Source: a virus
Lineage: Duplodnaviria > Caudoviricetes
Strand: one strand, 5' to 3'
Length of the DNA: 54,922 nucleotides
IMG/VR virus record: IMGVR_UViG_3300049259_000054
Coordinates: 1 to 54,922 of that record
Part shown: piece by piece, positions 1 through 54,922 of the stretch
Numbering within the stretch: position 1 is the first letter of the stretch
Layout: every line of letters starts with the position of its first letter
Translations under genes and position numbers: made by a program
The notes under the pieces: generated by a model
Told to the model about the DNA's origin: nothing
Seen by the model: only the letters and a program-made list of their open reading frames with translations
Database searches by the model: none

Positions 1-127
1 AGATCGCAGTACCCGGCGTCCGCTTCAACTTAGGAGCAGAAGCCTCCGGCCGTCCAGTGAACGACTTCCAAATCTTCGGATCGAACCGACACAGGACCAC
101 CACCCCGTACTGGCTGCGGGACGCCGT
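1..127. repeat. Terminal direct repeat, identical to 54796-54922 (circular-assembly overlap)
   Basis: Bases 1-127 (agatcgcagt...gggacgccgt) recur exactly at the window end. An ORF reads in frame across the junction, and 127 is a common assembler k-mer size. Confidence 0.95.
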
Positions 128-1288
128 CCCCCCAGTCGCCCCACCCCCACCCCCCGTCGCCGCAACACTCGCATGTTGAGCCACCGTCGTTACATTCATC
201 CGGAACGCCCGCCCAGCCAACAACACCTCAGACACCGTAGACAACGCCGGGCAACGTTTCGGATCGGAATCCTTCCTCGTGTCCGCCCACCAAGACTGCA
301 ACTTCTCCGTGAACAGGTTCGACTCCTCCACGATCAACACCACCCTGCCCCGCCGGCCACTGCCGCCCATTCGGGCGTCCAACTCCGACTGGACCGTCGA
401 CAGCGCTTGGGCGATCTCGTCGGCGCGGCGGTAGATCTCCACCCGCTCCACCCCATCCAGACAATTCACCGACTCGTGTTTCACATCCAACACCACGATC
501 CGATCGACCAGACCCTCCCCCGTCTTCCGGAGTAGCTGGCAGATCAGCGACATCAACGCCGTAGATTTACCCGCCCCCGTGCCCATACTCAGTAGTAGAT
601 GCGGCGCCTCGTAATCCATGTCGTAAGTCCGTGGCCTGGAATACCCATCCAACCCAAGCAAGATCTGCGACGGACCTAAATCCGACAGCATCGGCAGGAT
701 CTGCGCCCACGGGACCACCTTCGGCGGGTGCGGCCGCGCCTTGAAAGTAACGCGCGGCGGCCGAGCGGCCAGACGCCAATCCGTGTCGTAATCCCGCCCC
801 GTATGCTCCTCCACCACATTCAACACCCGACGCCGCTGCAGGTTAGTCGGGTTGCAATCCTTCGGCAGCTGCAACGACAGCGAATCCCACGACCGCGGTA
901 CCCTGAATTGACGACGGCTGGCGGACGGCGGTAATCCCTTCAACTCATGCGCAAGCTTCGCATACAACGGCGCCACCTCGAACCGGGAATGCCGGAACGT
1001 GTACGCCCCATACCCTAACGCCCCCAACCCACCGACCACGAACACCAACAACACAACCAGAACCACACCGACCGTCCGATGCGGATCTGCGTGATAACTG
1101 AAACCCAGACCGGCAACCATCGACACGAACAGCACCCGATACGCCAACCGGCGCAGCCCAGAATGCCGGTAATACCGGCGCGCCGCCTGATCATCCCGAC
1201 GCAGGAACGTAGAAGCCGACGGGTGTTTACCCACCAGACGGCGACCCGACAACCACCTGCCTACCAACGTGCCAATCGGCGAACTCAC
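1..1288 (-). CDS. 5' part of a pIJ101-type Tra (FtsK/SpoIIIE-like) DNA translocase, about 535 aa in total; continues at 54922-54476
   Basis: Hand translation from GTG at 1288 (GGAGGT RBS, GTGA overlap with the upstream stop) is open through the junction. It shows N-terminal RWLSGRRLVG, two hydrophobic segments, Walker A in APHLLLSMGTGAGKST, RIVVLDVK, Walker B VVLIVEE, WW-x5-SDPKRCPAL and AGRAFRMNVTTVAQ (arginine finger/Gln motif). Confidence 0.85.
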   Translation of the reverse strand, partial: MSSPIGTLVGRWLSGRRLVGKHPSASTFLRRDDQAARRYYRHSGLRRLAYRVLFVSMVAGLGFSYHADPHRTVGVVLVVLLVFVVGGLGALGYGAYTFRHSRFEVAPLYAKLAHELKGLPPSASRRQFRVPRSWDSLSLQLPKDCNPTNLQRRRVLNVVEEHTGRDYDTDWRLAARPPRVTFKARPHPPKVVPWAQILPMLSDLGPSQILLGLDGYSRPRTYDMDYEAPHLLLSMGTGAGKSTALMSLICQLLRKTGEGLVDRIVVLDVKHESVNCLDGVERVEIYRRADEIAQALSTVQSELDARMGGSGRRGRVVLIVEESNLFTEKLQSWWADTRKDSDPKRCPALSTVSEVLLAGRAFRMNVTTVAQHASVAATGGGGGATGGTASRSQYGVVVLCRFDPKIWKSFTGRPEASAPKLKRTPGTAI

Positions 1289-1521
1289 GGTAACCGCACC
1301 TCCGCCCGGACCAACCGCCCCACCGGCGGCACACCCTCGACCATTACGCCCTCATCGAAAAACTCAACCCGGATGGTCACATCGACCGGACGCCAAGGAC
1401 CGCTCTTCACCGCCACCGCCACAGCCAACATCACCGCCCGCCCGATATAGAACGGATACGCCTCCGGCTGGTCCACCAAATGGACAGGGATCGCAGCCAC
1501 ACCCGCAAACACCGTACTCAC
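1285..1521 (-). CDS. Hypothetical protein, translationally coupled to tra
   Basis: GTGA overlaps at both ends; start moved to V26 of the 1285..1596 ORF. Confidence 0.55.
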   Translation of the reverse strand: MSTVFAGVAAIPVHLVDQPEAYPFYIGRAVMLAVAVAVKSGPWRPVDVTIRVEFFDEGVMVEGVPPVGRLVRAEVRLP

Positions 1522-1625
1522 CGCGGCCACCGCGGACGATCGAAAGGCGCCAACCGCGACAACACCCACCACACCCCAGGTGTAGCAACCAGACAAACCA
1601 CCACAATCACAACAACCACCCCCAC
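1518..1625 (-). CDS. Small single-TM peptide (35 aa)
   Basis: Hand translation VGVVVVIVVVCLVATPGVWWVLSRLAPFDRPRWPR*; its stop overlaps the next GTG. Confidence 0.45.
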   Translation of the reverse strand: MGVVVVIVVVCLVATPGVWWVLSRLAPFDRPRWPR

Positions 1626-1676
1626 GCGTGAAAGAGAGAAACGAGGGAACGTTCGTTTGTTTGATCTATACAAATG

Positions 1677-2408
1677 CTAGGCTGCATTCTGCATCTCCTG
1701 TCTGACCCACCGCCACAGGGCGTCCCGGCGCGCACCGGAGCAACCGAGCGAGTAGGGTGGTTGTTGCAGTTCGTACCGGAGTAGGTCGCGGTTTAGCTTC
1801 TTACCCGCCATGTTATACCTACGCAGTATAGCCAGGGCGGGTTCTTTCAGGTCGGCGATCCGTTCGTCATCGGTCTTGCGGAACGGGGAGGGCCGCCCGG
1901 TCCGGGCCGGTGGTTTCGCTGCCTTAGCGGCGGGTTTAGCCGGCGAAGTTTTCACGACTGCGGGTTTCGCGGTTGCCGGCGCGTGTACCAACTGGTTCGC
2001 AACGGCTCGAGCGGGGATCATCGCGGTCCCGCAGACCACCATCAAACCATCGATCGCCAAGGGTCCGATGTGGGCGTAGAAGGAGTTCTCCCCGTAACGC
2101 ATGAGCAGCGATGACAGGTGCCCGTAGGAGATGGTCGCGGCGACCAGTGCGACGGTGCCGGTTCCGCAATATCTGGCTAAGGCTCGAGCTCTGCCGGGCG
2201 CCCATCGTTCGCGGGTGATCACTTCGATCCCGATCAGCAGGGCGACCGGCCAGAACGAGGCGAACAATCTGGATCCGGTGCCGGGTTGGGCGTCGGCGAC
2301 GTTCGCACTGATCGAAACCATGGCGCCGACCAAGAAACCTGCGGTGGCGATCAGATGTGGCCGGGTTCTAGTACTCCGGCTGTTCGTTGTGAGCGGCGTG
2401 TGAGCCAT
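1677..2408 (-). CDS. DUF2637/SpdA-like membrane protein (plasmid spread protein-like) with basic C-terminal domain
   Basis: Four hydrophobic segments with SISANV, WPVALL, AATISYGHL and GPLAIDGLM motifs. Leaderless ATG 6 nt after a TACAAT -10 box. Confidence 0.75.
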   Translation of the reverse strand: MAHTPLTTNSRSTRTRPHLIATAGFLVGAMVSISANVADAQPGTGSRLFASFWPVALLIGIEVITRERWAPGRARALARYCGTGTVALVAATISYGHLSSLLMRYGENSFYAHIGPLAIDGLMVVCGTAMIPARAVANQLVHAPATAKPAVVKTSPAKPAAKAAKPPARTGRPSPFRKTDDERIADLKEPALAILRRYNMAGKKLNRDLLRYELQQPPYSLGCSGARRDALWRWVRQEMQNAA

Positions 2409-2757
2409 CCGCCGATTGTAACATTCGATTTTGCCGGTGCGCAAGCAAGCGGTGGCGGTTATACAACAAGATAGTCGCTCCGTCCGCTGTCGCGTTGGTG
2501 ACCAGCTCATCTGACACCCAGGTTGAGAAGTACCGATCACCGCCGCGGGCGGAGATCGCAACACCCGCGGTGAAATCGATCCCGCTGATCAACGACCGGT
2601 GATTCACCCTCTCGTACCCGCAGCTGCATTCTTCACACCACCACTTCAACCCGCCGCTCAGTTCGAGCGGCCCGTGGTCCGGGATCGGGCAGTAACCTTC
2701 ACTGAGCCGGGCGAGACACGCCTCGCCGGACGGATCAGTGGCTGGGTTTGTCTTCAT
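2368..2757 (-). CDS. Hypothetical protein with CPxxxH...CxxC motif
   Basis: ORF in a coupled minus-strand run of genes. Confidence 0.5.
   Translation of the reverse strand: MKTNPATDPSGEACLARLSEGYCPIPDHGPLELSGGLKWWCEECSCGYERVNHRSLISGIDFTAGVAISARGGDRYFSTWVSDELVTNATADGATILLYNRHRLLAHRQNRMLQSADGSHAAHNEQPEY
2430..2445 (-). promoter_or_regulatory. Palindromic operator over the -35 of a promoter (TTGCGC-18-TACAAT) for the spdA-like/tra unit
   Basis: tttgc cggtgc gcaag. Confidence 0.75.
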
Positions 2758-3040
2758 AGTGGATCCGGTCCGCCGGGTAGGACTGCGAATGTTGGTCGTA
2801 GGCGCCGAGCTTGTATTGAACCCGTGCGTTGGTCCCGTCGAACGAGACGATCAGTTTACCGCGGTGGTAGATGGCGGTGGCGTGTGCGGCGTGGGATGCG
2901 GACAGCAGCTCTCCGACGAGGTTCTTGCTGAAGGTGGTGTGTTCGTCGGCGCGTTTGATGAACAGGTCGGGCTGTTCGCTCTTGGAGTTGCCGCCGAGTT
3001 GGAGTTCGCAGGTGCCGTCCCAATAGGCTTGGTCGATCAT
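2735..3040 (-). CDS. Hypothetical protein
   Basis: ATGA overlap with the upstream stop. Confidence 0.6.
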   Translation of the reverse strand: MIDQAYWDGTCELQLGGNSKSEQPDLFIKRADEHTTFSKNLVGELLSASHAAHATAIYHRGKLIVSFDGTNARVQYKLGAYDQHSQSYPADRIHYEDKPSH

Positions 3041-3246
3041 TCGGCAGTTTTCTGGAGGGATTCGGCGATGAAGACCAGGGCGTGAGCCATCACGGTCCAA
3101 GCCTCAGCGTCGGTCAACAGGTCGGGGTAATCCTCCGGCACGCCGAGTTCAGTTGCGGCCCCGGCGGCTTCCAGGATCGCCTTGGCAGCTCGCAGCGGAT
3201 CTGGGCGGGATTCCGAGCCCATCAAACGGACTTCACGTGTGGCCAT
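3037..3246 (-). CDS. Hypothetical protein
   Basis: GGAGG RBS before the ATG at 3246. Confidence 0.6.
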   Translation of the reverse strand: MATREVRLMGSESRPDPLRAAKAILEAAGAATELGVPEDYPDLLTDAEAWTVMAHALVFIAESLQKTAE

Positions 3247-3478
3247 TCTGGCCTCCATATCGGATCGCATAGAACTGGGCGCACCATTGGCAGTACCGGT
3301 CGTGGGCGAGCCGTCTCTTATAGCGGTTCAACAGCCAATCCGAGACCCAGAACTGGCGTCGCCGGCCGACACACCAGCGCAGCCCGAGGATGTGCCGACT
3401 GTCTCGGATCCGGCTGAACCCGACCGACAAGTGGTTGCAGCCGGCGTGCGGACCGCGGGTTACATCAGCTACCTTCAC
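3233..3478 (-). CDS. Hypothetical protein (CxxC); start uncertain
   Basis: Fills the gap between its neighbours in the same orientation. Confidence 0.35.
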   Translation of the reverse strand: MKVADVTRGPHAGCNHLSVGFSRIRDSRHILGLRWCVGRRRQFWVSDWLLNRYKRRLAHDRYCQWCAQFYAIRYGGQNGHT

Positions 3479-3629
3479 TGGTTTTGGCTTCTTCCTCCAG
3501 CAGCTTCTCCCGTTCTTCACGGGCGATCCGTTCCGCGTCGGCGTCGGCCATCCGCTGTCCGAGCGCCCGCAGCTCCTCTTCCGACGGCTGCGGCAGTTCC
3601 GGCGGGTTGATCTCATCCAGGGTCGACAT
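3465..3629 (-). CDS. Small acidic coiled-coil protein
   Basis: GAGGAG RBS; begins MSTLDEINPP. Confidence 0.55.
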   Translation of the reverse strand: MSTLDEINPPELPQPSEEELRALGQRMADADAERIAREEREKLLEEEAKTSEGS

Positions 3630-3698
3630 GGTTCTCCTCGGTCGGTAGTCGATCTTACGTTCGGTTTCGTGCGGGTGCCATCCGCAGGTACACATCCC

Positions 3699-4847
3699 TC
3701 ATCCTAACACCTTCTCTTGCTTACGTGCAAGTACCGATGCCCAGGCGTCCCACCACCGCCACGCCTGCCGCCCGTAGGTGTATTTGCTCATCAGCTCTCG
3801 GTTGGTCCCGCTGATGTGTTCCCGCAGGGTCTTGGATTTCCGCAGCCCGGACAGGTGCCGGTGCCAACGTTGCGGGGTGTTGGCGACCCGCAATTTCATG
3901 TCCAGGGATGCTGCCATCCGTAGGTTATCCGGTGTGGGTGAGGCGACGGTGGGGACGCCGAGCGCCATCAACTCGCACACCTTAAGCGCCGATTTCGCCC
4001 GGTTGAAGTGGGAGTCGGCGAGTGGGACGATCCCTATCCCGACCTTAGCGACGTTTTCGGCGTAGTGGTCGAACGGTACCCATCCGGTGGCGTCGATCCG
4101 GTCGCATTCGTATTTGATACTGTGCCAGATGCCGTTCTCGTCTCTGCGGCCGGGTGGTTTCAGGTCGAGTTTCCGGTGCGCCCGGTCGGCTGCACACAGC
4201 CCGAGACCTTCACACACTTTCACGCCGGTGCCGATCACGCGGATAGGCCCGCCGTACCGTCCGACGACCCCGCCGGTGACCTGAAGATCATTAGGGTGTG
4301 TGCCGACCTCCCCAGGCCATCCGATTTGATCCGAGTCAACGTGCGGTATCGAAAGATACCACGCCGGTACGCAGTTGGGTAGGACTGCGGTGTGCCGGTT
4401 GCCCAGCCTGCTCGCCAACGCTGGAGTTGTCACCGTCACCAGGTCCGCCATCTGACATGCTTGCATCGTGTACCGGTAATGCGACAGTGAGTTCGGTTGG
4501 TTGAACTGGGTATACGCTGCATTGCCCGGTTCGATCGCCATCAGGTCGTCATCCATATCGACCACAACCCGGATGCCGTAGGCTTGCAGCCGTTTGATGA
4601 TCTCGATCCAGTATTGCCCTTGTGGGCGTTGCAACACGATCACGTCGGCTTCCGGCTTGTCCATGTCTACGACTTGGGCGCCGGTGTCCAGTGGCGATCG
4701 GTCCCATTTGCGGTCCCACAGGATGGTTGGACCGGTGTAGTCCAGGATGGCGTCGTCGTTGCCGGCGTTATTGAGTGCTTGGACCGGCCAGATGGTCCGG
4801 TACGATCCGGATGCCACGGTGTCGCAGGGCCAGACTCGGACGATCAT
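3699..4847 (-). CDS. Glycosyltransferase (GT-B/GT4-like)
   Basis: YR-x-x-WP, DVIVLQRP, VVVDMDDD, ADLVTVTTPAL, LPNCV, IGIVPLADSHFNRAKSALKVCELMALGVPTVAS. Confidence 0.85.
   Translation of the reverse strand: MIVRVWPCDTVASGSYRTIWPVQALNNAGNDDAILDYTGPTILWDRKWDRSPLDTGAQVVDMDKPEADVIVLQRPQGQYWIEIIKRLQAYGIRVVVDMDDDLMAIEPGNAAYTQFNQPNSLSHYRYTMQACQMADLVTVTTPALASRLGNRHTAVLPNCVPAWYLSIPHVDSDQIGWPGEVGTHPNDLQVTGGVVGRYGGPIRVIGTGVKVCEGLGLCAADRAHRKLDLKPPGRRDENGIWHSIKYECDRIDATGWVPFDHYAENVAKVGIGIVPLADSHFNRAKSALKVCELMALGVPTVASPTPDNLRMAASLDMKLRVANTPQRWHRHLSGLRKSKTLREHISGTNRELMSKYTYGRQAWRWWDAWASVLARKQEKVLG
3716..3731. promoter_or_regulatory. Palindromic operator copy at the 3' end of the GT gene
   Basis: cttgc ttacgt gcaag. 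Confidence 0.6.
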
Positions 4848-4923
4848 CCGTCAACTCCGATTGACCCCACAAAGTTGCGAACCGTTTGGTTCATCTCATG
4901 CCTTTCGTCGTCACTCGTTGTTA

Positions 4924-5033
4924 TGTATCCTATTGTATCCTATTGTATCCTACATTTCCGGGTCAGTTTCCATGAAGAAAAAACAAAGCTACGAGGTATG
5001 GAAGAATAGATACACCGGATACAATAGGATACA
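4924..5033. repeat. Putative replication origin: 3 tandem TGTATCCTA(T/C) iterons, AT-rich spacer, 3 inverted copies
   Basis: tgtatcctat tgtatcctat tgtatcctac at 4924-4953; atagataca ccggataca ataggataca at 5006-5033; directly after the primase-helicase stop. Confidence 0.7.
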
Positions 5034-5038
5034 CGACA

Positions 5039-7369
5039 TTACTCTCCGTAGTCGAGCTTGCCCTGCTCGTTCACTATCGGTGATATGCCCTTCAACCCGA
5101 ATTTCGGCCGTGAATTCGAAAACCTCATCTTGGTCTTCGGCTTCTCCACAGCGTATCCTAGGTCTGCACTCCAGACCTTGATGGCTTCTGTCAACTTGGG
5201 CACGGAGAGTGAGTGTCGACCGTGTCCGGTGCACCAATCTTGGTGCACCTGCATCATCGCCTCATTTGACATCTTGCCGTCTGCGGTGAGTGTGAAACAG
5301 GAATCCAGAGACTCCGTCACCCAATCCTCGTCATGTTGGTACTGTTGCCCTTCTGCCCGGATCGAGGCCGGTACCTGCAACCCCTTTCCGGACCATTCCT
5401 GCGCACCCGCGACAGCCCACCGTAAGATGCCCGGCCCCTCTTCCCCCACTAGCTTTTGTGCCAGGTTGTTGATCCGGTGTGCCTCGTCCGGCTTCTCCGC
5501 TTGGAACGGCACCAGGATCAACCTCCTGAACAGTGCCGGGTCTCCCGCCTTCACCCGCGGCTTGTGGTTCCCCGACACCCACAGCTTGAACTGCGGGTAG
5601 AAGTCGAACGGGTTCTGACGCATCATGTTCGCCTGGACCTTCTCCCCCGATACGTAGCCCTTGATCCGGCTGACCGCGAACGACCCGCCTTCCTCGGTCT
5701 CGGTGTGGGTGGCCATCCGTTTCCCCCTAAGTACCGCTAGGATCGACTGATGCGAGGAGGATCCGGTCTTATTCTCCAGCAGCAGCTCCCGGTTCATCAC
5801 CGAATGTCCGGGGCCTAAGATCCGCCCCAGGACGTCCACGAAGGTGGATTTGCCGGTGCCGGGGCGGCCGTACAGGAAGAAGAACACCTGCTCCCCGGTG
5901 TCACCGGTGAGTGTGTACCCGGCGGCGCGTTGCAAGAACTCCTTCACCTCCAGGTCGCCTCGGGCGGCCCAATCCAGGAACCGTTCCCATTGCGGTGCTA
6001 CAGCGTCCGGATCCCAATCGATCCCAGTCCGCCAGGTGATCAGATCGCTGCGATCGTGCGGTTTCAAAACACCGGTCGCAAGGTCGAGGGTGCCGTTGCC
6101 GACGCTGATCCTGTGCGGGTCCGAATCCAGCTTTTCAGTTTCGGCTACTACCCGCGGGTCGGTCCGCGCCAGGGTGATCATCGCGGTGATGGCCCTGGCG
6201 CTTTGGGTTTTGATCCCGTGCATCGCGACCTTCTTGATCTGGTCGTCGTCCTTCACGTCTTGAGCTTCTTCCCAAATCCCCCGGGCGGTGTCCTTCGCCA
6301 GCTCTTGGATCCGGCCGGTGGCGTCTTCCCGCCAGATCGCACCATCCCAGACCAACGGCCCGACCCCCGGGACGAACCGGATGTCTTCCCCGTGTTTCGC
6401 GACCAGCCGTAGGGCGTTGCCGTCGTCGGTCAACCGGTAGATGATCTTACCGGAGTGGGTTTGGAACTCTTCAGATTTGCCGGGCTCGAACTGGGCGTAG
6501 GCGCGGATCAGCTTCTCTTCGCACACCTCCCATTCGAAGGTGTTCCCGTCTGGCTGCTCGAGCGCCCCCCAGACCGCTTTCACCTTCTGGGTGGCTTGCG
6601 GCAGCGGGATGTTCTTACTGCGCAACCCGCAACAGTACGCCCAAACCAGCTCGTCGCGGCCCCCCGCTTCGATCTGCCCGCCGACCGATAGCAGCCGGTC
6701 GACATCCGCGACCACCGATTTGAAATAGGCGCCGGATTCCCGGTCGGTCGGTCCCGCCGGTGTCTGCAGTTTCTGTAAGATCCAGCCGGGCAGCGGCGCG
6801 ATGCCTTCGGGGCCGCCGGATTTCGTGACGTATTCGACGCCGGATTCGTGTCCGCTGGGCGGGAGGATGACGTACCCGCCGTTGGCGCGGGTGTCGATCC
6901 CGTTTCCGAGTGAGATCCTTTTGCTCTTCCCGGAGGTGTTGCGCATGTCGGTGTCTTTCGGCGCCCGGTACCACAGGTGCTGCCCGCGGGTGCCTTCATG
7001 CTCCCCGGTGAGTACGGTCCAGGTCTCGACCCGGCCGTAGTCCCGTTCCAGGGCCTTCCAGGTGAGTTCACCGCCGTGGTCAGGGTCCACATCGACCACG
7101 ACCATGCCGGCGGTGGATGCGCCGATGTTCGCGTCTGGCCACATCTTGTACCAGATCTGGATTTGGGCTTCGTCGCGGGTGGCGTCCTTAAACCCGTTCT
7201 TGGTGCGCGGGTGTTTCCCGATGTTGATGCAGTCCGCCCGGGCGCAGCTGCATTTGACCCCGTCCCGCCCAAACATCGGGGTGTGCAGCGGGAAGATGTC
7301 GACACCTGCTTGGGCGTATGCCAGCGCGGCGGTCAGCTTACGTTGCGGGTCTATTGGTTCCAATCTCAT
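5039..7369 (-). CDS. Bifunctional primase-polymerase fused to P4/D5-like SF3 helicase
   Basis: N-terminal IFPLH, CSC-x3-C-x3-GKHP, ANIG, VVDVD, HLWY, GIDTRANGGYVILPPS; D5_N-like TDDGNA; Walker A GRPGTGKST; NHKP and RRLILVPF. Confidence 0.92.
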   Translation of the reverse strand: MRLEPIDPQRKLTAALAYAQAGVDIFPLHTPMFGRDGVKCSCARADCINIGKHPRTKNGFKDATRDEAQIQIWYKMWPDANIGASTAGMVVVDVDPDHGGELTWKALERDYGRVETWTVLTGEHEGTRGQHLWYRAPKDTDMRNTSGKSKRISLGNGIDTRANGGYVILPPSGHESGVEYVTKSGGPEGIAPLPGWILQKLQTPAGPTDRESGAYFKSVVADVDRLLSVGGQIEAGGRDELVWAYCCGLRSKNIPLPQATQKVKAVWGALEQPDGNTFEWEVCEEKLIRAYAQFEPGKSEEFQTHSGKIIYRLTDDGNALRLVAKHGEDIRFVPGVGPLVWDGAIWREDATGRIQELAKDTARGIWEEAQDVKDDDQIKKVAMHGIKTQSARAITAMITLARTDPRVVAETEKLDSDPHRISVGNGTLDLATGVLKPHDRSDLITWRTGIDWDPDAVAPQWERFLDWAARGDLEVKEFLQRAAGYTLTGDTGEQVFFFLYGRPGTGKSTFVDVLGRILGPGHSVMNRELLLENKTGSSSHQSILAVLRGKRMATHTETEEGGSFAVSRIKGYVSGEKVQANMMRQNPFDFYPQFKLWVSGNHKPRVKAGDPALFRRLILVPFQAEKPDEAHRINNLAQKLVGEEGPGILRWAVAGAQEWSGKGLQVPASIRAEGQQYQHDEDWVTESLDSCFTLTADGKMSNEAMMQVHQDWCTGHGRHSLSVPKLTEAIKVWSADLGYAVEKPKTKMRFSNSRPKFGLKGISPIVNEQGKLDYGE

Positions 7370-9185: not shown

Positions 9186-10067
9186 TCAGGTGATTTGCTC
9201 ACGCGCAAGCAGGGCGCGCCGAATACCCTCTTCCAACGACACCTCAGGCGTGTAGAACTGCAGCATTTTACTGTTGTCCGACACCCGGTAATGTACCCCG
9301 GCTGGTTTCTCCGGCAGGTATTTGATGGCGTCAGGGTCGTACCCGGCCGCCTCGATCACCAACTCCGCCAGTTCCCTGAACGAGGTGCCGACGCCGGATC
9401 CCAGATTGACCGGACCCGGCAACCTCCGTTCAACTGCAGCCAGGGTCGCACCGACGATGTCGTCAATGTGGATCCAGTCCCGCGTCTGGGTGCCGTCGCC
9501 CCAAACCTCGAACGGGTCAGCCTTCCGGTGTGCCCGGTCGATGAACGATGGGAACGGGTAGTCTAAGGCTTGGTCTTCGCCGTACCCGCTGAACGGCCGG
9601 ACGATCGTCACGTTCGGGACGTATTGGGCGAGCATCTCACCGGTGAGCTTCGCCCAACCGTAGGTCATGTCCGGGTTCATGATGTTGTCCAATTCGATAT
9701 CTACCTCCCGCAGTCGACGGTGGAGTGGGTACTCTTGCAACTCTGTCGGGTATGCGGCGGAGGAGGAGAAATAGACGATCCGGCCGGGTTCAGTCCGTAC
9801 CGCCCAGTTGAACATCTCCGCGTCGATCGACAGGTCCACCGCCAACGACAGCGGGTCCCCTTCGATCTGGGTCCGGCCGCCGACCACCGCGGCGCAGTGG
9901 ATCACCAAATCAAACCGGTCGTTATTCCACCGGAAGAAACCTCGAACATCCGACGGCGCTATCGGATCGGCGATATCAATCCGCCAGATCTCATGTCCGG
10001 CCGCGGTCAACACCGCATCGAAGTGGCGCCCGACGAACCCGGCCGATCCGGTAATTAGGACCCTCAC
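9186..10067 (-). CDS. NAD-dependent nucleotide-sugar epimerase/dehydratase
   Basis: VLITGSAGFVG, HCAA, YFSSSAAY, YGWAK, WGDGTQTRDWIHIDD; GTGA-coupled start at 10067. Confidence 0.92.
   Translation of the reverse strand: MRVLITGSAGFVGRHFDAVLTAAGHEIWRIDIADPIAPSDVRGFFRWNNDRFDLVIHCAAVVGGRTQIEGDPLSLAVDLSIDAEMFNWAVRTEPGRIVYFSSSAAYPTELQEYPLHRRLREVDIELDNIMNPDMTYGWAKLTGEMLAQYVPNVTIVRPFSGYGEDQALDYPFPSFIDRAHRKADPFEVWGDGTQTRDWIHIDDIVGATLAAVERRLPGPVNLGSGVGTSFRELAELVIEAAGYDPDAIKYLPEKPAGVHYRVSDNSKMLQFYTPEVSLEEGIRRALLAREQIT
9194..9209 (-). promoter_or_regulatory. Operator plus promoter (TTGCGC-17-TAGGAT) for the AAA ATPase/SSB genes
   Basis: tttgc tcacgc gcaag. Confidence 0.75.
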
Positions 10068-10660
10068 GGCCGCACCGCCAGCACGACTTGGAACATCGAA
10101 ACGTAGTGGTGGTCGATCACTTCGAACCCGCCCTGTTCGATCAGATCGATGTAGCCCGGCTTGTCCCACGCCCAAGTGTGGAATGGGTAGGCGCCACCTT
10201 CGGTCTCATTCCATGGGCTGGATGCGACCAGGGTGTCGGCGCCGATCGAGCGGACGAACGCGTGCGGGTCGACCAGGTGCTCCAACACCTCGGTGGCGAC
10301 GGCACAGAACGCCTTCCCCGGTTGAGGCCAGTTGACCGGTTTCGCGACGACGTCTTGCAGATAGATCTCGATACCGCGGTTACGCTGGGCGGCGTCGACG
10401 TTGGTCTGCTGCAGGTCGTACCCGATCCGGTCGACCTTCAGATCCTCAAGCAGCGACAGTAAGCCGCCGTCACCTGCGCCCAGATCGACGACGGTGCGGA
10501 AGCCGCGGGACCAGCAGGCGACGTGAATCATCTCCGACGCGAGGATGAGCCGCTCTCGATGGCCGGGCTGTTCCAGGTGGGGGGCGGTTTCCCGCTGCGC
10601 GTACCAGCCGGGTGTGGTCCATTCCGGCGCGGCGCCCTGGAACAGTTTAACCTCAGCCAC
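10064..10660 (-). CDS. Class I SAM-dependent methyltransferase
   Basis: VVDLGAGDG, GYDL, ATEVLEHLVDP. Confidence 0.88.
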   Translation of the reverse strand: MAEVKLFQGAAPEWTTPGWYAQRETAPHLEQPGHRERLILASEMIHVACWSRGFRTVVDLGAGDGGLLSLLEDLKVDRIGYDLQQTNVDAAQRNRGIEIYLQDVVAKPVNWPQPGKAFCAVATEVLEHLVDPHAFVRSIGADTLVASSPWNETEGGAYPFHTWAWDKPGYIDLIEQGGFEVIDHHYVSMFQVVLAVRP

Positions 10661-11318
10661 GGATTTTCTCCACATCGTGTGCGAGTTGGGTCGCCAGATA
10701 CCGGTTAAACACGGCTCGGTCCGATTCGTACAGCGCAGGTGCGTTCACCTCGGTATACCCGGCGTCGATTTGGGCCTTCCCGGCGGATGGGTGCAGATGT
10801 TCGATGATAACATCGGGAAGATAGTGGATCGAGTCGATCCCACGTCCCAGCGCCAACCAGAAATCATCCAGGTACAGGTGCACCGCACCGGGCGGGACCA
10901 TGTACCCGATCTTTCGGATGATATCTGAGGTCATGAACACCGCGGTGGGTAGGTCCGCACCGCGGAACAGATCATTGCCGTAGGCGATCCCGGTGTTCTG
11001 CAGCGCCTCTCCTATTTTTTCGTCCCACCGGGCGGTGGAGGGCAGGTGGTCATCCCCCATGAAGCCGATGATGTCGTACTGCTCGGCGAGTTTCGGTGCC
11101 AGGTGATTCAAGGTACCACCGAGTCGGAGCCGGGGGCCGACTTGCCAGAACACCCGATCTCGGACCACGTCGTGCCTATACGTGTAGAACTGTGGGTCGT
11201 CGGTGTCGATGCAGATGTGCAGGTCGGCGGACAGCGACGTGTTCAGGAAGAACGGGATCAAACGTTCGATCGAGGCGGGTCTGCCGCGACTGGGTACGAT
11301 GACGGCGATGCTCATCAA
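10653..11318 (-). CDS. Glycosyltransferase (GT-A/GT2-like)
   Basis: IAVIVPSRGRP, GFMGDDH, HLYLDD, IIEHLHP. Confidence 0.85.
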   Translation of the reverse strand: MMSIAVIVPSRGRPASIERLIPFFLNTSLSADLHICIDTDDPQFYTYRHDVVRDRVFWQVGPRLRLGGTLNHLAPKLAEQYDIIGFMGDDHLPSTARWDEKIGEALQNTGIAYGNDLFRGADLPTAVFMTSDIIRKIGYMVPPGAVHLYLDDFWLALGRGIDSIHYLPDVIIEHLHPSAGKAQIDAGYTEVNAPALYESDRAVFNRYLATQLAHDVEKIRG

Positions 11319-11914
11319 ACATCCCTCCGTTTAGTCCAGGGGCGGCCGGAGGTGTGCCCGCCGTGTCCATGCCAGGTCCAGGTTATCTGCGGGCAGTGGC
11401 TGAACTTGGCGCCGCCGTGTAGCATCGCGACCCAGGTTGCCCAATCCTCGCAGGGGTTTTCTGGGTCCGACCAGGTGAACGACTGAAACCCTCCCACTGC
11501 CCGTAACAACGAGACACGCACAAGGCAGGTTATGGGTATGAAGTTGCCGACGTTGCAGATGTAGTCGCGCAGTTCGTCATCGAATGGCCGCCCGAGTGGC
11601 TTCCAGGGCCACAGGTTCTGGTTGATCCCTTCATACCAGGGGTAGACCAGGTCGGCGTCGGTGTCTTTCTGCCAATCCTCCAGGACTTGCAGGTGTTGCG
11701 GCAACAGCTCGTCGTCGTCATCCAGGAAGGCGACAAAATCAGTATCAACGAGTTTCAACGCCCGGTTGCGGCATTCGGCGGCGCCTAGCCCGTCGTGGTC
11801 GTGCTGCACGATGACGTCGTCCGGTGCCCTCGTCTGGTTCCGGACAGACTCTAAGGCCCGGACCAGCATCTTGGCGCGGGGCGGGATGGTCGGTATTACG
11901 ACGGTGATTGTCAC
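11315..11914 (-). CDS. Glycosyltransferase family 2
   Basis: ITVVIPT, ALESVRNQT, RNRAL, VAFLDDDD, VGGF, EDW. Confidence 0.9.
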   Translation of the reverse strand: MTITVVIPTIPPRAKMLVRALESVRNQTRAPDDVIVQHDHDGLGAAECRNRALKLVDTDFVAFLDDDDELLPQHLQVLEDWQKDTDADLVYPWYEGINQNLWPWKPLGRPFDDELRDYICNVGNFIPITCLVRVSLLRAVGGFQSFTWSDPENPCEDWATWVAMLHGGAKFSHCPQITWTWHGHGGHTSGRPWTKRRDV

Positions 11915-17374: not shown

Positions 17375-17632
17375 ATGGCGAAAGACACCAGAGTATCCAA
17401 CCAGGAGATCGCCGATCTCGTCGGCCTGGATATGTCGACAGTCTCGAGGCTACGATCCGGCTTCAGGCTACCCAACATCGACACCATGACTCGGATCGAA
17501 AAGGCACTGAGCTGGCCCTTGACCGAACAGGCCGCCGTCCGCGAGACCGGGGCACAGAAATATGCCACGCAGTTCGAATCGCACGTCGAACGTTTCTGGC
17601 GAGACCGTGACGACAGCGACGAACCCGAATAG
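17375..17632 (+). CDS. XRE/Cro-family HTH regulator (candidate operator-binding protein)
   Basis: SNQEIADLVGLDMSTVSRLRSGFRLP HTH; AGGGAG RBS. Confidence 0.88.
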   Translation: MAKDTRVSNQEIADLVGLDMSTVSRLRSGFRLPNIDTMTRIEKALSWPLTEQAAVRETGAQKYATQFESHVERFWRDRDDSDEPE

Positions 17633-52147: not shown

Positions 52148-52167
52148 AGCACATCCTAGCACGTCTG

Positions 52168-52183
52168 CTTGCGCACATGCAAG
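52168..52183 (-). promoter_or_regulatory. Operator plus promoter (TTGCAT-18-TAGGAT) for the polymerase, next to a hairpin at 52183-52213
   Basis: cttgc gcacat gcaag. Confidence 0.8.
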
Positions 52184-52227
52184 CGCCCCAGGAGCTGGAA
52201 TCTCCTGGGGCGCGGCCCTGCGGGAGG

Positions 52228-52620: not shown

Positions 52621-52664
52621 CGCGGGCTCCTCGGGTGGTTTGGTTCCACCAGTATATCACAGAC

Positions 52665-52680
52665 CTTGCTTGAACGCAAG
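52665..52680 (-). promoter_or_regulatory. Operator plus promoter (TTGCGT-17-TATACT)
   Basis: cttgc ttgaac gcaag. Confidence 0.85.
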
Positions 52681-53640: not shown

Positions 53641-53656
53641 CTTGCTTTTACGCAAG
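53641..53656 (-). promoter_or_regulatory. Operator plus promoter (TTGCGT-17-TATACT)
   Basis: cttgc ttttac gcaag. Confidence 0.85.
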
Positions 53657-54229
53657 GGCTGCGATGGTACGGATAGAATCGAAATACGGCCACACAACCG
53701 ACACCGCGACCAAACCCAACACCAACACCGGGTACACCGCCAAATACTCCACATCAGACCCCACCTGCAGCCGGAACCAACTGGGCGTAATCCAGATCCG
53801 GCACCCCCGCTCGTCCCGACCCGGGAACCAGAACACCGGCACCCCCGATTTCGTCGGCAGATCCCCCAGCAGGTGCGTAACCATCCCACCTAACACCACC
53901 GGACCGATCCACCACACCCAACCGGCCGCGAAAACGCCCACCTCAAGTAGCCCGCATACCGGCAGGATGAAAATCGCCATGTGCGAGATCCCCCGATGCT
54001 CCGGCAGACCCAACGCATGGGAGAAACGGCGGACCAACCAGGACAACACCCAACCCACCGGACCTAAACTGCGGGTGAATAAGCTCCGCGGCGTATCAAT
54101 ATCGGGGGAGTCGGCAGTCCAAGTCCACAACGCCGCCAACAACACCGCATCGCCACCATGCAGACCCGCCAGATGCGCAGCCGTCACCCCGACCAACGCA
54201 CCCGATATTAGGTGTCCAGGTCCCATCAC
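53648..54229 (-). CDS. YdjM-family membrane-bound metal-dependent hydrolase
   Basis: MG-x2-H, PDID-x-P-x-S, HRGISH, HLLGD-x2-T-x2-GVP; GTGA-coupled start. Confidence 0.85.
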   Translation of the reverse strand: MMGPGHLISGALVGVTAAHLAGLHGGDAVLLAALWTWTADSPDIDTPRSLFTRSLGPVGWVLSWLVRRFSHALGLPEHRGISHMAIFILPVCGLLEVGVFAAGWVWWIGPVVLGGMVTHLLGDLPTKSGVPVFWFPGRDERGCRIWITPSWFRLQVGSDVEYLAVYPVLVLGLVAVSVVWPYFDSIRTIAALA

Positions 54230-54483
54230 CGGCGCAATACCCAATCCAGCATATTCGGATGATCCCGCATCCAGGTGGTGTCCACCCACCTGCCCGCATT
54301 CGATGGCGTCGGGACAGAAGCCGGCATCCACACCTCTACCAGGGCGCCAGACCACCGTCCGAGAGCCAACACACAATTCGGATGGTCTGGGTGTCCTGGC
54401 GGCGGTGTGTGCGCGGTGATCTCCTCATCGATCACCAAGGGCGGATCATGCGACAGACAAATCAGCCTGTAAGTGCTACTCAC
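54226..54483 (-). CDS. Hypothetical protein
   Basis: Coupled between tra and the hydrolase; CLSHDP...HPNC. Confidence 0.65.
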   Translation of the reverse strand: MSSTYRLICLSHDPPLVIDEEITAHTPPPGHPDHPNCVLALGRWSGALVEVWMPASVPTPSNAGRWVDTTWMRDHPNMLDWVLRR

Positions 54484-54922
54484 CGCTGCTCCATTCGCGA
54501 TTGTAATCGGTCAACTGCTGCAGGGTGAACCTTTCCGGCTTACCCCCGTCGCCCAGCCACTCCTCCCCCCGCTGTGCATCCGTAGCCTTCCTGCGCCGCA
54601 ACGCCGAATAAGAAACCGACGGTTCCAACAGATCCAACCCATAATCATCGCTGACCTCACGAAGGCTGAACGTCGGCTCCTTCACCGCAGGCAGCTCCGC
54701 CGTCGCCGCACCAGAATGCGCCAACGCATCAGCGCGGGCCTGCGCAGGGTCGATCAACACCAACTGCGCCTCATCCGTGGATCCACCCTCAAGCAAGATC
54801 GCAGTACCCGGCGTCCGCTTCAACTTAGGAGCAGAAGCCTCCGGCCGTCCAGTGAACGACTTCCAAATCTTCGGATCGAACCGACACAGGACCACCACCC
54901 CGTACTGGCTGCGGGACGCCGT
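54476..54922 (-). CDS. 3' part of the Tra/FtsK-like translocase (continues from 1288-128), ending in a probable wHTH domain
   Basis: Same frame as the 1..1288 segment through the repeated 127 nt; C-terminal FSLREV...SYSALRRR. Confidence 0.8.
   Translation of the reverse strand, partial: TASRSQYGVVVLCRFDPKIWKSFTGRPEASAPKLKRTPGTAILLEGGSTDEAQLVLIDPAQARADALAHSGAATAELPAVKEPTFSLREVSDDYGLDLLEPSVSYSALRRRKATDAQRGEEWLGDGGKPERFTLQQLTDYNREWSSGE
54796..54922. repeat. Terminal direct repeat, copy of 1-127
   Basis: Exact match to the window start. Confidence 0.95.

What the first reader, a model, noticed from the sequence alone, without database searches (positions are those of the whole stretch)
1..2445. 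Actinomycete plasmid-type conjugation module (Tra/FtsK plus SpdA-like) inside a tailed phage
Seen: a roughly 535-aa membrane-anchored P-loop ATPase (GTGAGKST; VVLIVEE; GRAFRMNV-x3-AQ) reads across the contig junction, and the ORF track shows only its last 140 aa. Upstream are a DUF2637-like 4-TM protein and a tiny TM peptide. Established: Streptomyces plasmids and AICEs transfer double-stranded DNA using a single FtsK-like Tra/TraB protein plus Spd proteins. The motif layout matches my recollection of the pIJ101 Tra type. Inference: this phage may move its DNA across septa or between hyphae without lysis, making it a phage-conjugative hybrid. Combined with a predicted Z genome this is, to my knowledge, undescribed.
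Basis: partly seen in the sequence, partly recalled or inferred. Interest (0 to 1): 0.87.

Follow-up and report, generated by a model that had tools for sequence, protein, structure and literature searches.

The report
Plasmid-type DNA pump in Z-genome phage
An uncultured soil phage that probably builds its DNA with 2-aminoadenine carries an intact membrane DNA-pump operon related to one found on Streptomyces plasmids, so its DNA might spread between host cells without virus particles, an idea that is untested and already has published precedents.

Summary
The window is a circularly assembled phage record with 127-bp identical ends. A 535-aa minus-strand protein reads across the join, exists verbatim in the protein database, and aligns end to end with relatives. 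It has an N-terminal membrane anchor, an FtsK/TcpA-like motor (AlphaFold pLDDT 91) and a conserved C-terminal domain.

Upstream are a 4-TM protein, which is a circularly permuted DUF2637, and a small hydrophobic ORF. Downstream is a YdjM-type membrane hydrolase. The unit starts at one copy of the phage's own operator (TTGC-N6-GCAA, 17 copies) and the next copy follows it.

- The nearest named relatives are the "pRL2-11"/"Tra protein" ATPases of Streptomyces plasmids (26-34% identity), which also sit after a DUF2637 gene.
- The family is not detectably related to the FtsK-like Tra of plasmid-phage pZL12.
- No clt-like repeats were found.
- "SpdA-like" is a mislabel; by architecture SpdB2 is the analogue.
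- Transfer is untested.

The theme is already known: pZL12, SpdB2 homologues in phiC31 and VWB, and this scan's notes on at least 65 other genomes. What differs here is a phage-specific ATPase clade, a PurZ phage, and no integrase or ParA.

The parts
2431..2444 (.). Palindromic operator TTGC-N6-GCAA overlapping a -35-like TTGCGC. A TACAAT follows, and then the ATG of the DUF2637-like gene at 2408. This is the start of the module's transcription unit.
   Evidence: 17 matches in the window against 0.72 expected; 0 of 100 shuffles reach 17. Sequence read.
1677..2408 (-). 243-aa membrane protein: a circularly permuted DUF2637-type four-helix core, a Pro/Ala/Lys-rich linker, and a C-terminal HTH-like segment.
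   Evidence: Pfam DUF2637 E 0.014, below cut-off. Homologues lie upstream of the ATPase in 8 of 31 loci. 7 of 18 aligned proteins hit DUF2637, best E 2.8e-18. Permutation: residues 9-66 match residues 62-118 of the canonical forms at 38.5-42.4 bits, against a shuffled maximum of 22.3.
1285..1596 (-). Small hydrophobic ORF of up to 103 aa (start uncertain). Its stop abuts the ATPase start.
   Evidence: ORF list. Hydrophobic segments at 8-42 and GC3 of 0.73. No family or homologue found. Unverified as a gene.
2..1288 (-). Residues 1-429 of the 535-aa ATPase: conserved N-terminal peptide, membrane anchor (hydrophobic 67-98), Walker A at 236-243, Walker B at 316-322, Arg finger R360 and Q371.
54476..54922 (-). 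Residues 388-535 of the same ATPase: the end of the motor domain and a conserved C-terminal domain of about 70 aa (possible MerR/excisionase-type winged helix).
   Evidence: The fold of the C-terminal domain is inconclusive.
54226..54483 (-). 85-aa ORF between the ATPase and the hydrolase gene. It is not present in the related contig L036.
   Evidence: ORF list. GC3 0.67. In L036 the hydrolase gene overlaps the ATPase stop. Unverified.
53648..54376 (-). YdjM-type inner-membrane metal-dependent hydrolase. It is the downstream neighbour of the ATPase here and in related phage contigs.
   Evidence: Pfam YdjM E 8.9e-16. A 31-33% identical homologue lies directly after the ATPase in L036, L043 and L044.
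53642..53655 (.). Next copy of the operator, at the end of the hydrolase gene. It marks the start of the following unit.
54796..54922 (.). 127-bp terminal overlap, identical to window 1-127. It is the assembly join and lies inside the ATPase gene.

Best explanation
What it is (shown). A tailed phage with no close cultured relative, which probably makes Z-DNA (it encodes PurZ), carries one operator-controlled transcription unit for a set of inner-membrane proteins. The centre of the unit is an intact 535-aa ATPase. It has a short conserved cytoplasmic N-terminus, a membrane anchor, an FtsK/TcpA-like RecA-fold motor with Walker A, Walker B, arginine finger and glutamine all in place, and a conserved C-terminal domain of about 70 aa.

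Its partners in the unit are:
- a four-helix membrane protein of the DUF2637 kind (circularly permuted) with a cytoplasmic HTH-like tail;
- a small hydrophobic ORF;
- a YdjM-type membrane hydrolase.

The ATPase belongs to an actinomycete family. Its named members sit on Streptomyces plasmids directly after a DUF2637 gene and are annotated pRL2-11, DUF87, FtsK or Tra.

How it most likely works (inferred). By analogy with FtsK, TcpA and Streptomyces TraB, the ATPase would form a ring at the membrane and pump double-stranded DNA. The C-terminal domain would choose the DNA, and the multi-pass partner would provide or gate the passage, as SpdB2 is thought to do. In a phage this would move replicating phage DNA into a neighbouring compartment or cell without a virion.

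My odds: about 0.9 that the gene is real, intact and phage-owned and is a member of this plasmid/phage ATPase family; about 0.4 that its job is to move the phage's own DNA between cells or compartments.
For: The gene is real.
- An exact 535-aa database entry exists, and relatives align across the join.
- The catalytic residues are invariant in 70 family members: K241, E322, R360, Q371.

Fold.
- The AlphaFold model has pLDDT 91 and pTM 0.80.
- The best Foldseek matches are the pCW3 conjugation coupling protein TcpA (6o1w, E 3.6e-15) and FtsK motors bound to dsDNA (6t8g, 2iut).
- The family profile hits EccC, TcpA and FtsK chains at E 3e-18 to 2e-13.
- Pfam FtsK_SpoIIIE is above cut-off for the window protein and is matched by 46 of 70 members.

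Plasmid link.
- 61 PLSDB records match, 57 of them Streptomyces, at 24-34% identity; 13 cover at least 80% of the protein.
- In 3 of 3 plasmids opened, a DUF2637 gene lies directly upstream.
- In the small plasmids pRL2 (22 of 26 features seen) and pPR2 (15 of 17 seen), no other FtsK-like gene is annotated.

Owned by the phage.
- The unit starts at one of 17 copies of the phage's operator.
- It lies between the primase/glycosylation genes and PolA, on the same strand.
- The window protein falls in a starred 7-row clade. Every member of that clade with a known context is on a phage-like contig (window, L036 = P0006, L044), and those contigs share the YdjM neighbour.

Recurrence in phages.
- 10 IMG/VR records hold relatives at about 30% identity.
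- 5 of those 10 also hold a large terminase; two of the five are DTR-bounded records.

The idea is in print. Thoma et al. 2015 state that TraB plus Spd proteins form a DNA translocation complex for intramycelial spreading, and that phage SpdB2 homologues might spread phage DNA (passages).
Against: - No experiment links this ATPase family to transfer. 'Tra protein' in pFRL6 is only an annotation.
- The family is not detectably related to pZL12.71c, the FtsK-like protein of the plasmid-phage pZL12, whose tra locus was characterised. It is remote from canonical plasmid FtsK/SpoIIIE proteins.
- No cluster of short direct repeats that could serve as a clt lies in or next to the gene.
- The C-terminal domain could not be shown to be a winged helix. 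Foldseek's best E-value is 1.2, and Pfam HTH_17 appears only below threshold, in 3 of 10 relatives and not in the window protein.
- The host is unknown. G+C is 63%, there is no tRNA, and the nearest cultured terminase is 47% identical, from a Microcystis phage. A mycelial host, on which the septum-crossing idea depends, is therefore not shown.
- The phage has no integrase, resolvase or ParA. A plasmid-like resting state from which it could conjugate is therefore not evident.
- In the related contig L036 the upstream partner is a 110-aa TM protein, not a DUF2637. The pairing with DUF2637 is therefore not obligatory.
Confidence: 0.42

Rival explanations
1. Exclusion or conflict system. The membrane ATPase and its partners keep foreign DNA out of the infected cell, by blocking superinfecting phages or incoming conjugative plasmids and AICEs. 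They would do this by occupying or jamming the same septal or membrane route, or by pumping DNA back out.
For: - Phages often carry membrane proteins for exclusion (general knowledge, not from a call).
- The unit is made entirely of membrane proteins.
- No loading site (clt) was found on the phage DNA.
- The phage has no plasmid-like maintenance genes.
- In Micromonosporaceae prophages the relatives lie near integrase and HTH repressor-type genes, where exclusion genes are often found.
Against: - I know of no precedent for an FtsK-type pump acting in exclusion.
- The conserved C-terminal DNA-binding-like domain and the intact motor suggest active handling of a chosen DNA.
- The nearest named relatives are on plasmids, in the place of the transfer gene.
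Confidence: 0.2
2. Segregation or carrier-state device. The pump moves phage genomes into daughter compartments or prespores during septation, as FtsK/SpoIIIE do for chromosomes. A phage without integrase or partition genes could then persist and disperse inside spores or dividing cells.
For: - The motor fold matches FtsK.
- No integrase, resolvase or ParA is present.
- An XRE-type regulator and a genome-wide operator suggest a switchable programme.
Against: - The closest relatives are plasmid 'Tra'-position genes rather than chromosomal FtsK.
- No sporulation link is seen in the window.
- The host is unknown.
Confidence: 0.13
3. Passenger without a role for the phage. The unit is a recently captured piece of a plasmid or AICE that is merely tolerated.
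For: - Relatives are on plasmids.
- Only 1 of 50,697 GenBank phage records has a match below E 1e-3 (Streptomyces phage Dagobah, a 309-aa ATPase-only protein).
Against: - The unit carries the phage's own operator.
- Its codon-position G+C is like that of neighbouring phage genes.
- All catalytic residues are intact.
- It belongs to a separate clade shared with other phage contigs at only 33-52% identity, which implies long residence in phages.
Confidence: 0.08
4. Assembly artefact. The 535-aa reading frame is created by a false circular join.
For: - The join lies inside the gene, and the overlap of 127 bases is the size of an assembler word.
- CheckV estimates the record as only 75% complete.
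Against: - The exact 535-aa protein is on record from 2 contigs.
- Four relatives of 540-544 aa align straight across the join.
- The AlphaFold model is confident across residues 380-440, apart from a 7-residue loop.
Confidence: 0.02

Closest known systems
'pRL2-11' / 'Tra protein' ATPases of Streptomyces and related plasmids (pRL2 NC_007927, pFRL6 NC_023286, pPR2 NC_019291), with their upstream DUF2637 genes
   Same: - Homologous over almost the full length: blastp E 3e-45 to 3e-34, 27-29% identity; tblastn 26-34% identity.
- Same order of parts: conserved N-terminus, membrane anchor, motor, C-terminal tail.
- Same neighbour, a DUF2637 gene directly upstream, with a small ORF in between in pPR2.
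   Different: - The window protein sits in a different major branch of the family tree, together with other phage-borne copies.
- Its DUF2637 partner is circularly permuted.
- The downstream neighbour is a YdjM hydrolase rather than the 'conjugal transfer protein' and large ATP-binding protein of pFRL6.
- I found no experimental work on this plasmid family; the names are annotations.
TraB/Tra/TraA dsDNA transfer ATPases of Streptomyces plasmids with Spd proteins (pSVH1, pIJ101, pWTY27)
   Same: - Same architecture as described in papers: N-terminal TM segment(s), an FtsK-like motor, and a C-terminal DNA-recognition domain (passages of PMC3583192 and PMC4447253).
- A four-TM membrane partner (SpdB2) encoded nearby.
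- The same superfamily by fold.
   Different: - No sequence of these proteins was available to me, so homology beyond the superfamily was not tested.
- Canonical plasmid FtsK/SpoIIIE-domain proteins in PLSDB match only at E 0.05-4.
- No clt-like repeat cluster was found.
- The winged helix was not demonstrated.
Streptomyces plasmid-phage pZL12 / phage ZL12 (GQ919031; Zhong et al. 2010, J Bacteriol 192:3747. The paper is not held; I saw only citations of it)
   Same: One replicon that holds both tailed-phage virion genes and an FtsK-like transfer gene with membrane-protein neighbours (record annotation).
   Different: - pZL12 is 90 kb and has ParA, ParB and an integrase/recombinase. The window has none of these.
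- Its FtsK-like protein pZL12.71c is not detectably related to the window's ATPase family.
- pZL12 was not among the 11 phage records matched at E <= 1.
- pZL12 is not annotated with PurZ.
TcpA, the FtsK-like coupling protein of Clostridium perfringens plasmid pCW3 (PDB 6o1w-6o1z), and the FtsK motor (2iut, 6t8g)
   Same: Best structural and profile matches of the motor domain.
   Different: - 12-16% sequence identity.
- Different N- and C-terminal parts.
- TcpA works with a multi-protein Tcp apparatus.
SpdB2 homologues on actinophages phiC31 and VWB (as stated in Thoma et al. 2015)
   Same: A multi-pass membrane protein of the plasmid spreading machinery carried by a phage. The proposal that it helps phage DNA to spread is already printed.
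   Different: - Those phages are not reported to carry the ATPase. phiC31 has no annotated one, and no phiC31 or VWB record matched P0001 at E <= 1.
- I could not test whether the window's DUF2637-like protein is homologous to SpdB2. My profile gave only E 0.082 to phiC31 gp25.

Membership tests
FtsK/HerA superfamily of pumping P-loop ATPases | RecA-like motor with Walker A, Walker B, arginine finger and conserved glutamine | tested here: met
   GTGAGKST at 236, VVLIVEE at 316, R360 and Q371; K241, E322, R360 and Q371 are invariant in 70 members. Foldseek matches TcpA and FtsK at E 1e-13 to 4e-15. The family profile matches EccC, TcpA and FtsK.
Pfam FtsK_SpoIIIE (PF01580) | Score above the curated cut-off | tested here: met
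   29.5 bits against a cut-off of 24, though only residues 206-304 match. 46 of 70 family members match at E <= 0.01.
Plasmid 'pRL2-11 / Tra protein' ATPase family | Near full-length homology | tested here: met
   blastp against pRL2-11 gives E 2.9e-45 over residues 11-428; pFRL6 Tra gives E 2.8e-34; pPR2 gives E 1.4e-36. 13 plasmid records cover at least 80% of the protein.
Plasmid 'pRL2-11 / Tra protein' ATPase family | DUF2637 gene directly upstream on the same strand | tested here: met
   3 of 3 plasmids opened show it. The window has a DUF2637-like gene at 1677-2408. It is not universal: the related phage contig L036 lacks it.
Streptomyces TraB (pSVH1 type) | N-terminal membrane association | tested here: met
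   Hydrophobic stretch at 67-98 (Kyte-Doolittle). Long helices at 44-67 and 69-115 in the model.
Streptomyces TraB (pSVH1 type) | [quoted passage not shown] | tested here: inconclusive
   The C-terminal ~70 aa are conserved in 24 relatives. The domain model has pLDDT 72.5. The best Foldseek matches are MerR-type DNA-binding domains (BmrR, RacA), but at E >= 1.2, and 0 matches reach E <= 0.001. Pfam HTH_17 appears only below cut-off, in 3 of 10 relatives and not in the window protein.
Streptomyces TraB (pSVH1 type) | clt: a cluster of short direct repeats in or beside the tra gene | tested here: not met
   The k-mer cluster scan of the whole circle and the repeat search of 52100-54922 and 1-5200 found no such cluster in or next to the gene. 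The only tight repeat cluster is at 4924-5038, 2.5 kb upstream of the unit.
Streptomyces TraB / pZL12 TraA (characterised transfer ATPases) | Sequence homology to a characterised member | tested here: not met
   The only such sequence at hand was pZL12.71c. The family profile gave no hit at E <= 10, and blastp gave E 1.7. pSVH1 TraB, pIJ101 Tra and pWTY27 TraA were not available.
   No pIJ101 record was reached. SCP2 (NC_003904) is not in the collection.
Pfam DUF2637 (PF10935) | Score above the curated cut-off | tested here: inconclusive
   The window protein scores 15.7 bits against a cut-off of 22.8. Its homologues at 32-36% identity match at E down to 2.8e-18. The weak score is explained by a circular permutation of the two helix pairs.
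   No SpdA sequence was at hand. From passages of PMC4447253, the four-TM membrane protein is SpdB2, not SpdA, so the architecture of the window protein fits SpdB2 better.
SpdB2 | [quoted passage not shown] | tested here: inconclusive
   Four helices are inferred from homology to DUF2637 forms; only two pass a strict hydropathy cut. An HTH-like tail is present. Sequence homology to SpdB2 was not tested because I had no sequence.
Phage-plasmid (pZL12 type) | Plasmid maintenance genes (ParA/ParB, Rep) beside virion genes | tested here: not met
   No CbiA/ParA match, no tyrosine integrase and no resolvase in six frames of the record. pZL12 has ParA, ParB and an integrase.
Conjugative element | Transfer of DNA between cells that depends on the ATPase | not testable with these tools
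   This needs a mating or spreading assay.

The most novel reading that the evidence does not exclude
A phage with no lysogeny or plasmid-maintenance genes and a 2-aminoadenine genome uses a domesticated, phage-specific branch of the actinomycete plasmid DNA pump to push replicating phage genomes directly into neighbouring cells or hyphal compartments. Its partners would be a permuted DUF2637 channel protein and a membrane hydrolase. This would be a virion-free route of cell-to-cell spread for a lytic bacterial virus, comparable to the movement proteins of plant viruses. It would also require the pump's DNA-reading domain to work on Z-substituted DNA.
Probability: 0.18. Interest if true: 0.82.

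Novelty: new variant of a known kind. Interest (0 to 1): 0.45.

Why it matters
If the pump moves phage DNA, phages of filamentous or aggregated actinomycetes would have a second infection route that escapes receptor-based resistance and extracellular barriers. Models of phage spread in soil mycelia would then have to change.

The present case adds three things to the known plasmid-phage theme:
- The ATPase belongs to a family different from the FtsK-like protein of pZL12, and to a clade so far seen only on phage contigs.
- The carrier has no integrase or partition genes, so 'conjugation from a resident plasmid' does not explain it.
- The carrier encodes PurZ, so any sequence-specific loading would have to happen on modified DNA.

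The work also gives a concrete, small operon (about 3.7 kb, five ORFs, its own operator) that can be tested in a model Streptomyces. Set against this, the general idea is already in print, and this scan has met it in many other genomes.

Tried and rejected
Searches and jobs that led nowhere:
The contigs of P0002 (59 kb, the closest relative), P0003 and P0004 could therefore not be read.
- The search for related loci with P0002 in metagenome contigs found nothing.
- The 70-row alignment was too diverse for a genome scan. The 4-row alignment was used instead. That scan used a single peptide pattern, so its Micromonosporaceae bias (16 of 18 loci) may come from the pattern.
- GenBank phages gave no match to the 429-aa piece at E 1e-5 and none to the DUF2637-like protein at E 0.01.
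- PLSDB with the DUF2637-like protein gave one weak hit, a Tsukamurella DUF2637 protein at E 2e-4.

A result I withdrew. My first iterated profile of the upstream protein pulled in 21 ORFs. A cleaner profile showed that 11 or more of them (L023, L025 and others) were joined through spurious arginine-rich N-terminal extensions. They are a different four-TM protein, and I do not count them as homologues.

Tests that were negative or gave no answer:
- PurZ and portal searches in four related virus records were negative, but those records are fragments or unrelated, and L036 is not held.
- The look-up of sequencing runs listed no RNA holder. Two soil-metagenome DNA runs of one study hold the stretch and may be its source.
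- Read laying on 51923-54922 laid only two 19-base scraps of one contig and says nothing about the join.
- Complex prediction (ATPase plus DUF2637-like protein) gave no answer, score 0.00.

Literature limits:
- The pZL12 paper (PMC2897331) is not held.
- The 'DUF2637' search found 2 papers, neither informative.
- The search for PurZ together with FtsK, TraB or plasmid-phage listed 12 of 159 papers, none of them relevant. It is therefore not exhaustive.
- I did not ask for supplements. Table S1 of Ghinet et al. 2011 and Table S6 of Thoma et al. 2015 might show whether this ATPase family was counted as Tra.

Idea rejected: that the gene is a packaging ATPase. The phage has its own large terminase.

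Full report
THE OBSERVATION.

The window is an IMG/VR virus record of 54,922 bases whose first and last 127 bases are identical. That is a circular assembly or short terminal redundancy. On the minus strand, a frame open at the window's start (1288->2, 429 aa) and a frame open at its end (54922->54476, 148 aa) share the residues encoded by the overlap.

The joined 535-aa protein did not have to be built. It is in the protein database letter for letter (P0001; 4 member sequences on 2 contigs, the longest 54,825 bp). The closest relatives (P0002 52%, P0005 and P0006 about 34-37% identical, 540-544 aa) align from about residue 20 to about residue 515, straight across the join. The finding's coordinates 1-2445 also cover a small hydrophobic ORF (1285-1596) and a membrane protein (1677-2408).

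THE CARRIER.

PHROG and Pfam scans identify the following:
- tape measure protein (28882-32970)
- tail fibre
- major head protein
- protease
- portal-MuF fusion
- large terminase
- PurZ (45732-46907; phrog_1211, E 3.9e-90)
- a dUTPase fusion
- a PurB-like lyase
- PolA
- primase
- Sak4-like protein
- exonuclease
- a helicase
- a block of glycosyltransferase, methyltransferase and epimerase genes

Nearly all genes are on the minus strand. Six-frame searches of the record found no tyrosine integrase, no resolvase-type recombinase and no CbiA/ParA; the controls responded in 12-14 of 14 genomes.

The nearest cultured terminase is 47% identical, from a Microcystis phage. There is no tRNA. G+C is 63%. 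The host is therefore unknown. An actinomycete host is suggested only by where the relatives of the module are found.

THE ATPASE.

Pfam FtsK_SpoIIIE is just above its cut-off (29.5 against 24), and PHROGs gives 'FtsK/SpoIIIE-like'. An exhaustive HMMER search of 1.84 billion representatives found 788 relatives at E <= 1e-3, 527 at E <= 1e-10 and 52 at E <= 1e-30. Most are 530-700 aa and align from the N-terminus. None of the 10 that I looked up carries an informative name.

In a 70-row alignment, K241, R306, R315, E322, R360, Q371, R391 and G426 are invariant, and an N-terminal R-x3-G-x4-G motif is nearly so.

AlphaFold2 on that alignment gave pLDDT 91 and pTM 0.80. The model shows two long N-terminal helices (44-67 and 69-115), an alpha/beta linker domain, the motor, and a small C-terminal domain. 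Foldseek against the PDB puts TcpA, the conjugation coupling protein of pCW3, first (E 3.6e-15). FtsK motor domains on dsDNA follow, then EssC/EccC and HerA. A profile search of PDB sequences agrees. A strict hydropathy scan finds one strong membrane stretch at 67-98.

WHERE THE RELATIVES LIVE.

Plasmids. In PLSDB, 61 of 72,556 plasmid records match at E <= 1e-3. 57 are Streptomyces, identity is 24-34%, and 13 cover at least 80% of the protein. They are annotated pRL2-11, DUF87 domain protein, FtsK, ATP-binding protein or, in pFRL6, 'Tra protein'. I opened three of them (pRL2, pPR2, pFRL6). In each, the gene is directly preceded on the same strand by a 'DUF2637 domain-containing protein'; in pPR2 a 123-aa ORF lies between them. 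GntR, NUDIX and DUF927 replication genes are nearby.

GenBank phages. Among 50,697 records only Streptomyces phage Dagobah matches below E 1e-3 (E 9e-6), through a 309-aa protein that is only an ATPase core.

IMG/VR. Ten records hold relatives at about 30% identity. Five of the ten also match a large-terminase profile; two of these are bounded by terminal repeats and two are proviruses.

GTDB genomes. A pattern-limited scan gave 18 loci, 16 of them in Micromonosporaceae genera.

A crude Pfam census of neighbouring ORFs gave the following:
- 110 ORFs from 7 genome loci: serine recombinase domains (3), small terminase (2), HNH (2) and DUF2637 (4).
- 91 ORFs from 5 viral loci: tyrosine integrase (3), a tape measure protein, lysins, HTH regulators and DUF2637 (1).

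So that branch sits in temperate phages.

A FastTree of 115 rows places the window protein in a starred clade of 7, with P0002, P0005, P0008, P0006 = L036 and L044. The three plasmid proteins are in the other half of the tree, and the Micromonosporaceae copies (10 viral, 14 genomic, 1 representative) form one clade. I left out the following rows:
- the fragments L018, L038, L039 and L042
- L022 and L043, which duplicate L004 and L036
- representatives P0081-P0153
- P0154

The tree is a quick one without bootstraps.

RELATED PHAGE CONTIGS.

L036 (a 52.6-kb metagenome contig), L043 and L044 encode an ATPase 33-35% identical to the window's. Directly after it comes a homologue of the window's YdjM-type membrane hydrolase (31-33% identity). 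Before it come homologues of the window's glycosyltransferase, methyltransferase and epimerase genes (39-59% identity). In L036 the genes that follow look like tail fibres, and the ORF just upstream of the ATPase is a 110-aa membrane protein rather than a DUF2637. The constant core in this phage clade is therefore: small membrane ORF, ATPase, YdjM hydrolase.

THE UPSTREAM MEMBRANE PROTEIN.

The window protein (243 aa from ATG 2408) is below Pfam's DUF2637 cut-off. It has clear homologues directly upstream of the ATPase in 8 of the 31 loci then in hand: L007, L020, L024, L028, L029, L030, L032 and L033. Seven of 18 aligned proteins match DUF2637, the best at E 2.8e-18.

Aligning the true homologues shows the following:
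- The conserved helix pair with the G-E ... P-L-x-x-D-G motif comes second in the window protein and in L007, but first in the canonical forms.
- The window's first helix pair (residues 9-66) matches the second pair (residues 62-118) of the canonical forms at 36-41% identity. The scores are 38.5-42.4 bits, against at most 22.3 bits for 100 shuffles.

So the protein is a circular permutation of the DUF2637 core, which explains the weak Pfam score. A Pro/Ala/Lys-rich linker and an HTH-like tail follow; the tail aligns with the A-x-I-A-E-L-A-G-V-S-x-A-T-V-K-R-Y segment of the others.

According to passages of Thoma et al. 2015 (PMC4447253), the four-TM, pore-forming, DNA-binding spreading protein of Streptomyces plasmids is SpdB2, whereas SpdA is a DNA-binding protein of debated role. 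I could not test homology to SpdB2.

REGULATION.

The palindrome TTGC-N6-GCAA occurs 17 times in the window, against 0.72 expected; no shuffle of 100 reached 17.

One copy (2431-2444) overlaps a -35-like hexamer. It is followed by TACAAT and then the ATG of the DUF2637-like gene. The next copy downstream on the coding strand is at 53642-53655, at the end of the hydrolase gene. The module is thus one operator-bounded unit of five ORFs, about 3.7 kb, wired into the phage's own control network. It lies between the primase/glycosylation genes and PolA.

TESTS OF THE TraB ANALOGY THAT DID NOT SUCCEED.

1. Loading site. I found no cluster of short direct repeats in or beside the ATPase gene. The one tight repeat cluster in the genome consists of three tandem TGTATCCTAT units at 4924-4953 facing two inverted copies at 5017-5038, across an A+T-rich spacer. 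It lies in the intergenic region after the primase gene and looks more like an origin or a regulatory site.

2. C-terminal domain. It is conserved in 24 relatives. Modelled alone it reaches only pLDDT 72.5. Its best PDB matches are MerR-type winged-helix domains on DNA (BmrR, RacA), but with E >= 1.2. Pfam HTH_17 appears only below threshold, in 3 of 10 relatives.

3. Homology to a characterised Tra. The FtsK-like protein of plasmid-phage pZL12 (pZL12.71c, 725 aa) is not hit by the family profile at E <= 10. Canonical FtsK/SpoIIIE-domain proteins of actinobacterial plasmids match P0001 only at E 0.05-4.

The window's ATPase therefore works like, and is built like, a Tra protein. It belongs, however, to a separate family whose transfer role rests on gene position and annotation.

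WHAT IS KNOWN.

- Streptomyces plasmids and AICEs transfer dsDNA with one FtsK-like protein plus Spd proteins (passages in PMC2440964, PMC3583192 and PMC4447253).
- A Streptomyces plasmid-phage with a transfer locus, pZL12, was described in 2010. I saw only citations of the paper and the GenBank record.
- PhiNon1 of Nonomuraea is called 'reminiscent' of pZL12. The passages I saw do not mention a tra gene.
- SpdB2 homologues on phiC31 and VWB were proposed to help phage DNA spread.
- This scan's own notes record 'TraB-type module in an actinophage' in 69 findings from at least 65 genomes. They are AI notes and not independent evidence, but they show that the theme recurs.

I found nothing in print on a PurZ phage with such a module. 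That search listed only 12 of 159 papers.

VERDICT.

The gene set is real, intact and phage-owned. Filing it under 'actinomycete plasmid-type DNA pump module' is justified at the level of family and synteny with plasmids. Filing it under TraB of the pSVH1, pIJ101 or pZL12 type is not.

The most likely function is movement of phage dsDNA across a membrane or septum. I put this at about 0.4. Exclusion, segregation into daughter cells or spores, and a passenger role are the alternatives.

It is a new variant of a known kind. The points of difference are a distinct ATPase clade, a permuted DUF2637 partner, a YdjM partner, no lysogeny or partition genes, and a probable Z genome.

Noticed in passing
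window 4848-5038: A+T-rich intergenic region after the primase gene. It holds three tandem copies of TGTATCCTAT (4924-4953) facing two inverted copies (5017-5038) across a 66-76 nt spacer. All genomic copies of GTATCCTA lie in this region. It is a candidate origin or regulatory site.
   Followed up: partly
window, 17 sites (e.g. 2431, 3717, 9195, 17315, 45039, 45055, 52169, 53642): The palindrome TTGC-N6-GCAA occurs 17 times against 0.72 expected and often overlaps a -35-like hexamer. It looks like a genome-wide operator/promoter network.
   Followed up: partly
window 1677-2408 and L007 8501-9286: The DUF2637-type membrane core is circularly permuted in these two phage-borne proteins relative to the Micromonosporaceae forms (helix pair 3-4 placed before pair 1-2).
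   Followed up: yes
window 45732-46907, 44055-45023, 14599-15720: PurZ (phrog_1211, E 3.9e-90), a 322-aa protein with a C-terminal dUTPase domain, and a 373-aa Lyase_1 (PurB-like) protein 30 kb away. This is a probable 2-aminoadenine pathway. I did not look for DatZ or MazZ.
   Followed up: no
window 17375-17632 (+): 85-aa XRE-like HTH protein, divergent from minus-strand genes and placed just before the only large plus-strand gene (helicase, 17562-19034). Together with the lack of integrase, resolvase and ParA, the lifestyle stays unclear.
   Followed up: partly
window 9186-11914; L036 568-4271; L044 169-4469: A block of GT2 glycosyltransferase, unknown gene, SAM methyltransferase and NDP-sugar epimerase-like gene is shared at 39-59% identity with the related phage contigs that also share the ATPase.
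   Followed up: no
window 48460-49206: A 248-aa protein matches DUF6192 (E 1.4e-8), which is a family of unknown function.
   Followed up: no
L017, L019, L023, L025-L027, L004, L006, L010, L011 (about 0.7-1.7 kb upstream of the ATPase match): In these Micromonosporaceae prophage and genome loci the gene before the ATPase encodes a different four-helix membrane protein (consensus PAFVAIWSGWVGLGGLTGFG...). It does not match DUF2637. The slot is the same but the family is different.
   Followed up: partly
L035 2547-3476 (Streptomyces phage Dagobah): A 309-aa hypothetical protein is a remote, anchor-less relative of the ATPase core (E 9e-6). It is the only match below E 1e-3 among 50,697 GenBank phage records.
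   Followed up: no
window 1639-1662: An imperfect palindrome, AAACGAGGGAACGTTCGTTTGTTT, lies between the DUF2637-like gene and the small ORF.
   Followed up: no
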